Source: Patescibacteria group bacterium (GTDB taxonomy: Bacteria; Patescibacteriota; Patescibacteriia; UBA9934; GWF2-40-263). From it: a stretch of 64,000 nucleotides of DNA. This document shows, piece after piece, positions 59,976-60,683 of the stretch (position 1 is the first letter of the stretch; each line of letters starts with the position of its first letter). Made by a program: the position numbers and the translations under genes. A model generated the notes under the pieces. It saw nothing but the letters and a program-made list of their open reading frames with translations, ran no database searches and was not told the origin of the DNA. Location of the stretch: assembly GCA_035290185.1 (NCBI GenBank), contig DATDUW010000022.1, forward strand, positions 1,579-65,578, given 5' to 3'.

Positions 59976-60683
59976 ATGTATCCACGTTCTTCTGAACGGA
60001 AGCGGAACCGTCTGGCTGGATACGATTATGCCCAGGATGGGTATTATTTTGTGACAATCTGTACCCAGGAACACGAATGTTATTTTGGCGACGTTCAAGA
60101 CGGACAAATGTGGTTGAATTCAATAGGAAAAATAGTTCAAGAGCAATGGGAATGGTTAGGGCGTCGATATTCGTATATAGTTCTGGATGAATTTGTTGTT
60201 ATGCCAAATCATTTGCATGGAATTTTGGCGATTGATAGGTCACGGTTGTTGAATATGGATATGACCGTGGCCGTTGGCGCCGCTGCGGATACGACGGATG
60301 CCATTGATTCGATTGCTGTAATACCTACCGCATCCGTGGCCATGCCGGGAACGAAAATCGGAACGAATACGGTAAGGAATGGTCGCGACCATTCCCTACG
60401 GAATGACGAATTGGATGGTGAATTACGCGACGAATGGGCTGGTGTGCTGCCGCGACGCATGGAAAAAATTAAACCATTACCCGAATTAATGGGCGCATTT
60501 AAAACGACATCATCCAAACATATTCATATGGCTGGATTGACAACGTTCCATTGGCAGAAGTCATTTTATGACCATATTGTCCGGTATGATTCTTCGTTAA
60601 ATCGCATTCGTGAATATATTCGTTCTAATCCTCCCTTTTGGGAAATGGACCGCAATCATAAAGGTAATCCTTTTGTCGGGTAG
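59976..60683 (+). mobile_element. REP-associated tyrosine transposase-like HuH (Y1) transposase, IS200/TnpA_REP family, with ~60-aa insertion
   Basis: HuH motif VVMPNHLHGIL and catalytic Tyr region WQKSFYDHIVRYD...YIRSNPPFW are collinear with RAYT/IS200 TnpA. No terminal inverted repeats are expected for this family. ORF 59868-60683; start at the Met after the paralog C stop. Confidence 0.7.

What the first reader, a model, noticed from the sequence alone, without database searches (positions are those of the whole stretch)
59976..60683. RAYT-like HuH transposase inside the paralog array, plus REP-like palindromes elsewhere in the window
A single HuH tyrosine transposase gene sits between paralogs C and D, with no flanking terminal inverted repeats. 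It is collinear with REP-associated tyrosine transposases (HuH block, catalytic Tyr block, YINPVKHG-like tail) and carries a ~60-aa insertion between them. Three intergenic sites elsewhere hold palindromic elements with a shared GTCATYSYGAG core and GACGAAG motif, which is how REP/BIME sequences recognised by RAYTs appear. A RAYT beside a tandem paralog family points to REP-mediated recombination driving the array's expansion.
Basis: partly seen in the sequence, partly recalled or inferred. Interest (0 to 1): 0.6.

Follow-up and report, generated by a model that had tools for sequence, protein, structure and literature searches.

The report
RAYT gene carrying its own REP
The gene is an ordinary member of a known class of domesticated single-strand-DNA nucleases (RAYT subclass 2.4) that carries its own target-like palindrome inside its coding sequence; the palindromic repeats elsewhere in the window are real, but they belong to a different, widespread repeat family that is not tied to this gene.

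Summary
ORF 59976-60683 (235 aa, Patescibacteria/Uhrbacteria MAG) is an intact Y1 HuH protein, and five GTCAT...GAG...GAAG...CTC units lie at three intergenic sites.

The protein fits TnpA_Y1 subclass 2.4 (Quentin 2018), which is Bertels Group 4. It has NHLH, WQ and YIRSNP motifs and a Y1 fold. The "60-aa insertion" is that subclass's known variable linker. It contains an in-frame GTAG/CTAC "double-foot" REP palindrome at 60372-60399.

Its closest homolog sits in the same conserved gene cluster of another Uhrbacteria genome. That homolog has nearly the same palindrome core inside the gene and again just upstream. This palindrome is therefore the cognate REP type, not the GTCAT units.

The GTCAT units belong to a widespread family: (T/C)GTC tag, a 5-bp covarying stem, GAGGA, a variable hairpin, GACGA(A), the returning stem, then CTC. 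They resemble the orphan "CGTC-tagged" REPs. They are not linked to RAYT genes: 3 of 80 RAYT loci contain them, and 2 of 80 unit loci hold any Y1 gene.

The paralogs are 35-68% identical, have no repeats at their junctions, and form an equally large array in a genome without the RAYT. REP-driven expansion of the array is not supported.

The parts
59976..60683 (+). RAYT-like Y1 HuH gene, 235 aa. Same protein as NCBI HLD17935.1, annotated 'hypothetical protein', Patescibacteria MAG.
   Evidence: ORF; identity. 2611 homologs. NCBIfam REP_Tyr_transpos 51.6 bits. Profile hit to 4ER8. AF2 model plus Foldseek give a Y1 transposase fold.
60207..60218 (+). HuH motif N78-H79-L80-H81
   Evidence: Invariant N78, H79 and H81 in the 70-sequence alignment. 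Aligns to PEHMH of 4ER8.
60234..60470 (+). Predicted disordered.
   Evidence: Alignments. pLDDT 45-55 for roughly residues 101-160, with 113-143 below 50. This is the position of the variable beta3:alphaC insertion of subclass 2.4 (PMC6006769).
60372..60399 (.). In-frame double-foot REP palindrome GTAAGGAATGGTCG|CGACCATTCCCTAC. It reads GTAG-footed on the minus strand and encodes V133-R142 (VRNGRDHSLR).
   Evidence: Inverted repeat I11. ssDNA fold -7.9 kcal/mol, z = -2.1. Unique in the window. A palindrome at the same position, with covarying stems, occurs in 53 of 73 homolog genes.
60552..60584 (+). W193 Q194 ... D199 H200 ... R203. These align with the E. coli TnpA_REP residues that read the GTAG foot (W94 Q95 E100 H101 R104).
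   Evidence: Profile alignment to 4ER8. Residue roles as listed in PMC6006769.
60615..60632 (+). Catalytic-Tyr motif Y214-I-R-S-N-P (class 2 Y---NP signature)
   Evidence: Y214 and N218 invariant, P219 nearly invariant. Aligns to YIYINP of 4ER8.
31647..31774 (.). Tail-to-tail inverted doublet of (T/C)GTC-tagged units: U1 31651-31694 (+) and U2 31727-31770 (-). REPIN-like.
   Evidence: Folds at -24.6 kcal/mol, z = -6.2.
32289..32418 (.). Tail-to-tail inverted doublet: U3 32292-32353 (+) and U4 32373-32415 (-)
   Evidence: Folds at -39.1 kcal/mol, z = -7.9.
36006..36051 (+). Solitary (T/C)GTC-tagged unit U5, between the PBP2 and MurF genes
   Evidence: 44.4 bits.

Best explanation
The gene. ORF 59976-60683 encodes an intact RAYT of TnpA_Y1 subclass 2.4 (Bertels Group 4). 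This is a single-copy HuH/Tyr nuclease of the kind inferred to recognise and cut GT[AG]G-footed single-stranded DNA hairpins (REPs).

The insertion. As is typical of this subclass, its surface linker between the HuH and Tyr blocks holds an in-frame 'double-foot' REP palindrome (60372-60399). The '60-aa insertion' is an expanded version of that variable linker. It is predicted disordered and lies away from the confidently modelled core.

The setting. The gene is a guest inside a conserved Uhrbacteria gene cluster: SecDF, DUF8128, two TraG-like ATPases, then an array of about 578-aa paralogs. It is packed tightly enough that it is probably co-transcribed, and it has lost or never had flanking REPs here.

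The repeats. The GTCAT units at 31.6, 32.3 and 36.0 kb are a separate repeat family. It is widespread, DNA-level and REPIN-like. Each unit has a (T/C)GTC tag, a 5-bp stem, a conserved purine-rich internal loop and a variable inner hairpin. Its mobilising enzyme is unknown.

What is shown and what is inferred. Shown: family membership, fold, the internal palindrome, the cognate REP in the sister genome, the architecture and breadth of the unit family, and the lack of association between units and RAYT genes. Inferred: nuclease activity on GTAG-footed hairpins, co-transcription, and mobility of the units.
For: Family and fold:
- Motifs NHLH / WQ / YIRSNP; 2611 homologs, many named 'RayT' or transposase.
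- Profile hit to E. coli TnpA_REP 4ER8, E = 4e-5, with the GTAG-reading residues conserved.
- AF2 model pLDDT >90 for the core; the top 30 Foldseek PDB hits are all Y1 transposases.

Internal REP:
- Quentin et al. 2018 describe subclass 2.4 as NH[IFV]H / WQ / YIxNNP with a variable beta3:alphaC insertion and in-frame REPs, 'long' or 'double foot', inside the gene.
- The same feature is seen here in 53 of 73 homolog genes. Stem sequences differ between genomes while the palindrome is kept. 33 genes also have copies of the same arm just outside the gene.

Sister genome:
- L204's RAYT is the closest homolog (48% identity) and lies in the same cluster. Its neighbouring TraG-like genes are 79-81% identical to those in the window.
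- It carries GTGGGGGATGGTCG|CGACCATCCCCCAC inside the gene, and ...GGAGGGATGGTCGCGACCATCCCTTAC in the 77-nt gap upstream.

Units:
- At least 120 metagenome stretches match the pattern.
- Stem P1 covaries in 83 of 85 units, at positions the search pattern left free.
- Inner stem P2 averages 3.3 bp against 0.9 bp in shuffles.
- The base before GTC is T in 58, C in 22, G in 5 and A in 0.
- Doublets and clusters are common.
- No neighbouring protein family is enriched, and there is no Rfam match.
Against: - In the window the RAYT has no flanking cognate REP. None was found anywhere in 64 kb, so a working REP-RAYT system is not demonstrated for this genome.
- Scores fall below the curated cut-offs of Pfam Y1_Tnp (18.7 against 23) and NCBIfam REP_Tyr_transpos (51.6 against 80).
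- The HuH middle residue is L, outside the published [IFV].
- The rest of the genome could not be read.
- One of 80 unit-bearing metagenome loci does carry a 2.4-type RAYT about 3 kb away. In L017 a doublet lies about 230 nt downstream of a RAYT gene. A genome-level association is therefore not excluded.
Confidence: 0.8

Rival explanations
1. The GTCAT...GAG...GAAG...CTC elements are the REP/BIME targets of this RAYT, and REP-mediated recombination drove the expansion of the paralog array.
For: - The units are over-represented, REPIN-like and in the same genome as the RAYT.
- The sister genome has a degenerate doublet in an array gap.
- In L017 a doublet lies about 230 nt downstream of a RAYT gene.
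Against: - The units lack the GT[AG]G foot that the conserved W/Q/D/H/R residues are expected to read.
- The RAYT's own palindrome, and the flanking REP of its closest homolog, are a different sequence class.
- Only 3 of 80 RAYT loci contain units, and only 2 of 80 unit loci contain a Y1 gene, 3-5 kb away.
- No unit lies within 23 kb of the RAYT or at any paralog junction in the window.
- The paralogs are 35-68% identical, and a six-paralog array exists in a locus with no RAYT.
Confidence: 0.06
2. The gene is an active IS200/IS605-type insertion sequence that recently inserted into the array.
For: - Y1 fold, with ISDra2 and IS608 as top structural hits.
- GC is slightly lower (0.41-0.47) than in the neighbouring genes.
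Against: - Y---NP, not the Y---Q signature of subclass 1.1.
- No subterminal hairpins or spare flanking DNA (8 and 14 bp gaps) and no tnpB.
- Single copy in the window.
- The closest homolog occupies the same cluster in another genome at only 48% identity, which argues for long residence.
Confidence: 0.02
3. The RAYT has been recruited as a relaxase-like single-strand-DNA processing enzyme. It would work with the adjacent TraG/TrwB-like coupling ATPases of the conserved Uhrbacteria cluster.
For: - Two related genomes keep a RAYT in the same cluster, within or at the head of the paralog array downstream of two TraG-like genes.
- Conjugative relaxases are also HuH nucleases that pair with coupling proteins (established knowledge).
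Against: - A third genome has the same cluster without a RAYT.
- The RAYT's position in the cluster differs between the two genomes.
- Other close homologs sit in unrelated contexts.
- The protein has no extra domain beyond the disordered linker.
Confidence: 0.05
4. The GTCAT units act mainly as structured RNA, for example a kink-turn-like protein-binding motif or a 3'-UTR stabiliser, rather than as mobile DNA repeats.
For: - Covarying helices P1 and P2 surround invariant purine-rich strands GAGGA / GACGA(A). That is the pattern expected of a folded nucleic acid.
- By my reading, the loop can be drawn as a 3-nt bulge followed by tandem G.A pairs.
Against: - No orientation bias relative to flanking genes.
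- G.T and A.C mismatches are equally frequent in P2: 9 against 8.
- Frequent inverted doublets, tandem clusters and one nested copy point to DNA-level spread.
- No Rfam family matches.
Confidence: 0.12

Closest known systems
TnpA_Y1 subclass 2.4 (Quentin, Siguier, Chandler, Fichant 2018, PMC6006769), which equals RAYT Group 4 (Bertels, Gallie, Rainey 2017, PMC5581495)
   Same: - NHxH / WQ / YIxxNP motifs and a core of about 146 aa.
- A variable-length insertion between beta3 and alphaC.
- An in-frame GT[AG]G...C[TC]AC 'double-foot' REP inside the gene.
- Low copy number and a scattered distribution across phyla.
   Different: - The host is a Patescibacteria (Uhrbacteria) MAG.
- The linker is unusually long: 235 aa against a median of 194.
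- No flanking REPs here (8 and 14 bp gaps), although the closest homolog does have one.
- The gene is embedded in a co-directional paralog array.
E. coli TnpA_REP / RAYT (subclass 2.2, PDB 4ER8)
   Same: - Y1 HuH fold.
- A family profile built on this gene matches 4ER8 at E = 4e-5.
- The WQ...(E/D)H..R residues that read the GTAG foot and the YIxxNP tyrosine helix line up.
   Different: - About 12% identity (Foldseek alignment).
- E. coli has DHLH-type HuH, no internal REP and no long linker.
- E. coli is flanked by REP/BIME copies (a REPtron).
CGTC-tagged REPs (Di Nocera, De Gregorio, Rocco 2013, PMC3733652), compared with the GTCAT units
   Same: - A CGTC tag that is often TGTC.
- A stem that begins with A-T.
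- A short unpaired 3' tail.
- Intergenic and dispersed, often as dimers.
- No dedicated transposase gene beside them.
   Different: - Published families have an 8-9 bp continuous stem, a 4-5 nt loop and a CCA tail. They are mostly head-to-head dimers and mainly in Alphaproteobacteria.
- Here the outer stem is 5 bp, followed by a conserved GAGGA / GACGA(A) internal loop and a variable inner hairpin, with a CTC tail.
- Here dimers are mostly tail-to-tail.
- Hosts include Patescibacteria, Ignavibacteria, Chloroflexota, Brocadiales and many unassigned metagenome contigs.
REPINs (Bertels and Rainey 2011)
   Same: Two inverted units separated by a short spacer, folding into one long hairpin. They are intergenic and over-represented.
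   Different: REPINs are defined together with a flanking cognate RAYT and GTAG-type REPs. Neither applies to the GTCAT doublets.

Membership tests
RAYT / TnpA_Y1 subclass 2.4 (Group 4) | HuH motif NH[IFV]H | tested here: met
   N78-H79-L80-H81. The middle residue is L here. Homologs in the same alignment have L, F, V or I.
RAYT / TnpA_Y1 subclass 2.4 (Group 4) | W motif WQ and class 2 Tyr motif Y---NP (YIxNNP) | tested here: met
   W193-Q194 and Y214-I-R-S-N-P. W193, Q194, Y214 and N218 are invariant and P219 nearly invariant across 70 homologs.
RAYT / TnpA_Y1 subclass 2.4 (Group 4) | Y1 HuH fold | tested here: met
   AF2 core pLDDT >90. The top 30 Foldseek PDB hits are ISDra2, IS608, IS200 and TnpA_REP, with target-normalised TM 0.56-0.70.
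RAYT / TnpA_Y1 subclass 2.4 (Group 4) | Variable beta3:alphaC insertion holding an in-frame GT[AG]G-footed REP, a feature unique to this subclass | tested here: met
   Palindrome 60372-60399 lies in frame inside the linker. The same feature is in 53 of 73 homolog genes. Described in PMC6006769.
RAYT / TnpA_Y1 subclass 2.4 (Group 4) | REPs of the same family flanking the gene within about 1 kb (REPtron) | tested here: not met
   No other copy of the palindrome core in 64 kb. GT[AG]G-footed hairpins are at chance level, 31 against 22-46 in shuffles. Intergenic gaps are 8 and 14 bp. The feature is met in the closest homolog L204 and in 33 of 73 homologs.
RAYT / TnpA_Y1 subclass 2.4 (Group 4) | Single or low copy per genome; not on IS-like ends | tested here: inconclusive
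   One copy in the window and no ends. The rest of the genome was not available.
RAYT / TnpA_Y1 subclass 2.4 (Group 4) | Curated HMM thresholds (NCBIfam NF047646 REP_Tyr_transpos; Pfam PF01797 Y1_Tnp) | tested here: not met
   51.6 bits against a cut-off of 80, and 18.7 bits against 23. The long linker splits the match, and NF047646 is labelled an equivalog-type model.
RAYT / TnpA_Y1 subclass 2.4 (Group 4) | Sequence-specific cleavage and joining of REP single-stranded DNA | not testable with these tools
   Needs biochemistry.
IS200/IS605 transposase (subclass 1.1) | Y---Q tyrosine motif, D-H-[VI]-H, subterminal hairpins, multiple near-identical copies, often with tnpB | tested here: not met
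   The gene has YIRSNP and NHLH. There is no room for ends and no tnpB nearby.
Cognate REP/REPIN of a RAYT (applied to the GTCAT units) | GT[AG]G foot at the hairpin base, and copies flanking the RAYT gene | tested here: not met
   The tag is (T/C)GTC. The nearest unit is 23 kb from the RAYT. Units are found in only 3 of 80 RAYT loci.
CGTC-tagged REP superfamily (applied to the GTCAT units) | CGTC or TGTC tag, stem beginning A-T, short unpaired tail | tested here: met
   The base before GTC is T in 58, C in 22, G in 5 and A in 0. All stems start AT. The tail is CTC. Window tags are TGTC three times and CGTC twice.
CGTC-tagged REP superfamily (applied to the GTCAT units) | 8-9 bp continuous stem with a 4-5 nt loop; head-to-head dimers predominate | tested here: not met
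   5-bp P1, conserved internal loop and variable P2. A tail-to-tail partner was found for 29 of 85 units against 9 head-to-head. The published consensus sequences are in figures that were not available.

The most novel reading that the evidence does not exclude
The (T/C)GTC - P1 - GAGGA - P2 - GACGA(A) - P1' - CTC element may be an undescribed, cross-phylum family of structured mobile repeats. That would extend the orphan 'CGTC-tagged' REPs to candidate phyla and many environmental lineages. Its invariant purine-rich internal loop could be the recognition site of a still unidentified mobilising or binding protein. Nothing in Rfam and none of the papers searched by sequence describes it.
Probability: 0.3. 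Interest if true: 0.55.

Novelty: new member of a known kind. Interest (0 to 1): 0.3.

Why it matters
The RAYT. This removes an apparent oddity. The '60-aa insertion' and the missing terminal repeats are the published hallmarks of subclass 2.4 RAYTs. NCBI annotates this gene only as 'hypothetical protein', so a better name can be given.

The pairing of enzyme and repeat. Co-residence of a RAYT and a palindromic repeat in one genome is not evidence that they work together. Here the enzyme's likely substrate can be read from inside its own gene and from its sister genome.

The GTCAT-type element. This is the more open item. Its covarying helices and invariant loop bases, seen across very different bacteria, mean something specific reads it. 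The enzyme that spreads CGTC-type repeats has been an open question since 2013.

Tried and rejected
- Hammerhead ribozyme reading of 'GTC ... CTGAGGAG - hairpin - CGA..GAA'. Rejected: the CU of CUGA lies in a covarying stem (80% of units have GC there), an extra GAC precedes GAA, there is no helix I, and Rfam gives no hit.
- Rfam search of the window units and of eight metagenome loci. Only chance or artefact hits appeared; for example, an inverted doublet scored as plant MIR5534 below threshold.
- Literature search by sequence strings returned only unrelated primers. The supplements of the two key papers hold no matching strings.
- Looking for a protein family enriched next to 80 unit-bearing loci found none.
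- Strand tests on the units (G.T against A.C mismatches, orientation relative to genes) showed no asymmetry.
- Searching for extra REP-arm copies that would explain the long linker found none at up to 4 edits. Only short degenerate 24-25-nt-spaced repeats (GACGAATGG, CGCGAC) lie just 3' of the palindrome, which is suggestive at most.
- Reading the rest of the 99-kb source contig failed. The look-up returned only short assemblies of the same locus.
- A single-sequence PDB search missed 4ER8; the profile search found it.
- ARAGORN found no tRNA or tmRNA gene in the window, including the tRNA-like piece at 56388-56458.

Full report
OBSERVATION

The ORF at 59976-60683 (+) is real. It begins 8 bp after the stop of paralog C and ends 14 bp before the start of paralog D, so there is no room for terminal repeats. 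The longer GTG-started reading (59868, 271 aa), used in some ENA gene calls, overlaps paralog C. Homolog alignments do not support it, and NCBI calls the 235-aa form (HLD17935.1, 'hypothetical protein', Patescibacteria MAG).

The motif GTCATYSYGAG occurs 5 times against 0.24 expected. A covariance model built later finds exactly these five units in the window and nothing else credible. They sit at three intergenic sites:
- before the DUF192 gene (doublet at 31.6 kb);
- after the DUF192 gene (doublet at 32.3 kb);
- between the PBP2 and MurF genes (single unit at 36.0 kb).

Single units do not fold better than shuffles. The two inverted doublets fold as long hairpins, with z = -6.2 and -7.9.

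WHAT THE GENE IS

The protein has 2611 database homologs of mostly 165-200 aa. Many are named 'transposase' or 'REP element-mobilizing transposase RayT', and they come largely from Patescibacteria, Omnitrophota, Chloroflexota, Cyanobacteria and Bacteroidota.

The conserved blocks are P-N-H-x-H-G-I, F-x-W-Q-[RK]-S-[FY]-[YF]-D-H and Y-I-x-x-N-P. Other evidence on the fold and family:
- A profile of the family matches E. coli TnpA_REP (PDB 4ER8) at E = 4e-5. The HuH block, the W-Q...(E/D)-H..R residues and the Y-I-x-x-N-P helix all align.
- An AlphaFold model has pLDDT above 90 for residues 11-90 and 161-225.
- The top 30 Foldseek PDB hits are all Y1 HuH transposases: ISDra2, IS608, IS200 and 4ER8.
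- The Y---NP signature excludes IS200 proper, which has Y---Q.
- Pfam and NCBIfam models hit only below their curated cut-offs.

THE 'INSERTION'

The extra residues lie entirely between the HuH strand and the next helix, and they are modelled as disordered.

Inside this stretch, at 60372-60399, the DNA is a 14+14 palindrome, GTAAGGAATGGTCG|CGACCATTCCCTAC. It reads GTAGGG... on the minus strand and encodes VRNGRDHSLR.

I fetched 80 genomic loci with homologs. In 53 of 73 genes the same linker position holds a strong palindrome, usually GT[AG]G...C[TC]AC. The stems differ completely between genomes, for example:
- GTAGGGACAGGTCGCGACCTGTCCCTAC
- GTAGGGGCGGTTCGCGAACCGCCCCTAC
- TGTAGAGACGTTGCATGCAACGTCTCTACA

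The encoded peptide changes accordingly. The DNA palindrome is therefore the conserved feature, not the peptide. In 33 genes the same arm also occurs just outside the gene, typically about 70 nt upstream of the start or just after the stop.

This is already published. Quentin et al. 2018 define TnpA_Y1 subclass 2.4 (Bertels Group 4) by NH[IFV]H / WQ / YIxNNP and a variable beta3:alphaC insertion. [quoted passage not shown] The window gene is a member with an unusually long linker.

I could not show that the additional residues derive from further REP copies.

WHICH REPEAT BELONGS TO THIS RAYT

The closest homolog in 5.8 billion proteins is P0002 (48% identity). It lies in another Uhrbacteria genome (GCA_016209325.1, locus L204) in the same conserved cluster: DUF8128, two TraG/TrwB-like ATPases that are 79-81% identical to those in the window, then the array of about 578-aa paralogs.

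That gene carries GTGGGGGATGGTCG|CGACCATCCCCCAC inside its linker. In the 77-nt gap upstream it has two partial left arms followed by ACGGAGGGATGGTCGCGACCATCCCTTAC. The core is almost the same as in the window (GGAATGGTCGCGACCATTCC). The cognate REP of this RAYT lineage is therefore the GT[AG]G-type palindrome.

In the window that palindrome is unique, and GT[AG]G-footed hairpins are at chance level. This copy has no local REP population.

THE GTCAT UNITS

My own estimate of the chance expectation is a handful. Features the pattern did not constrain are strongly non-random:
- Outer stem P1 covaries in 83 of 85 units: ATTGC/GCAAT 68, ATTCT/AGAAT 9, ATCCT/AGGAT 4, ATCGC/GCGAT 2.
- The next three bases are GAG in at least 90% of units.
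- The inner segment forms a G...C-closed hairpin P2 averaging 3.3 bp, against 0.9 bp in shuffles.
- The base before GTC is T or C in 80 of 85 units.

The architecture is (T/C)GTC - P1 (5 bp, starts AT) - GAGGA - P2 - GACGA(A) - P1' - CTC.

Units often occur as tail-to-tail doublets (29 of 85), in clusters (a 50-nt-period array in L095), and once nested inside another unit.

Tests for association and for an RNA role gave nothing:
- No protein family is enriched beside the units.
- Only 2 of 80 unit loci hold a Y1 gene, 3-5 kb away.
- Only 3 of 80 RAYT loci hold units.
- There is no Rfam family and no paper matching the sequence.
- There is no strand or orientation bias that would favour an RNA role.

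The tag, the A-T stem start and the unpaired tail match the textual definition of the 'CGTC-tagged REPs' of Di Nocera et al. 2013. Those authors note that such repeats have no dedicated transposase and never flank RAYT genes. The stem design and the dimer orientation differ from the published families.

THE PARALOG ARRAY

The five paralogs in the window are 35-68% identical, and a sixth follows in other assemblies. No repeat of either type lies at their junctions.

The family is Uhrbacteria-specific and arrayed in every genome examined. A third genome (GCA_016187485.1) has the same cluster with six paralogs in the 21.7 kb read and no RAYT there. Other small 'guest' genes (HTH regulators, a peptidase) sit between its paralogs.

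The RAYT is thus a guest gene of the array and is not needed for the array's existence. Its persistence in two genomes at 48% identity fits the vertical, domesticated behaviour described for RAYTs.

VERDICT

The RAYT call is right and can be sharpened to subclass 2.4 with an internal REP, a known kind. The link to the GTCAT repeats and to array expansion is not supported. The GTCAT-type element is the one item that may deserve separate study.

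Noticed in passing
window 56222-56481: The gap between paralogs A and B holds three features. There is a terminator-like hairpin at 56228-56252. There is a tandem repeat GGTTTAATTGAAT x3.7 at 56330-56379. On the minus strand at 56388-56458 there is a tRNA-like piece (acceptor stem, T-arm, ACCA). It gives only a weak Rfam tmRNA hit (16.1 bits, gathering threshold 47) with the middle of the model deleted, and ARAGORN calls nothing. It could be an attachment-site remnant.
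   Followed up: partly
window 46117-64000; L204 3484-19517; L207 71-17002: A conserved Uhrbacteria cluster: SecD/SecF, a DUF8128 protein, two TraG/TrwB-like ATPases, then an array of at least 5-6 Cys-rich paralogs of about 578 aa with no Pfam domain. Different small guest genes sit between the paralogs: the RAYT, NUDIX, ArsR-type HTH regulators and peptidase S51.
   Followed up: partly
L204 8892-8968: Upstream of the sister RAYT, the REP left arm ACGGAGGGATGGTCT is repeated twice before the complete palindrome. This looks like a local tandem expansion of a half-REP, similar to the repeated half-REP peptides inside P0005 and P0094.
   Followed up: no
L086 5340-5393; L095 527-711: One GTCAT-type unit carries a second mini-unit nested in its inner loop (GCG-ATCCTGAGCGGAGCGAAGGAT-CGC). 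Another contig has at least four units in a head-to-tail array with a 50-nt period.
   Followed up: no
L204 17253-17407: A degenerate tail-to-tail doublet of the GTCAT-type family, with tags decayed to CACC(A)TCTTCCTGAG, lies in a gap between two paralogs of the sister genome's array.
   Followed up: partly
window 59800-60800: The RAYT gene has somewhat lower GC (0.41-0.47) than the flanking paralogs (0.47-0.53). Some ENA gene calls use an upstream GTG at 59868 that overlaps paralog C.
   Followed up: no
L089 3977-4055: An inverted doublet of units scores as the plant microRNA precursor MIR5534 in Rfam (49.5 bits, below the gathering score of 79). This is an artefact of long perfect hairpins.
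   Followed up: no
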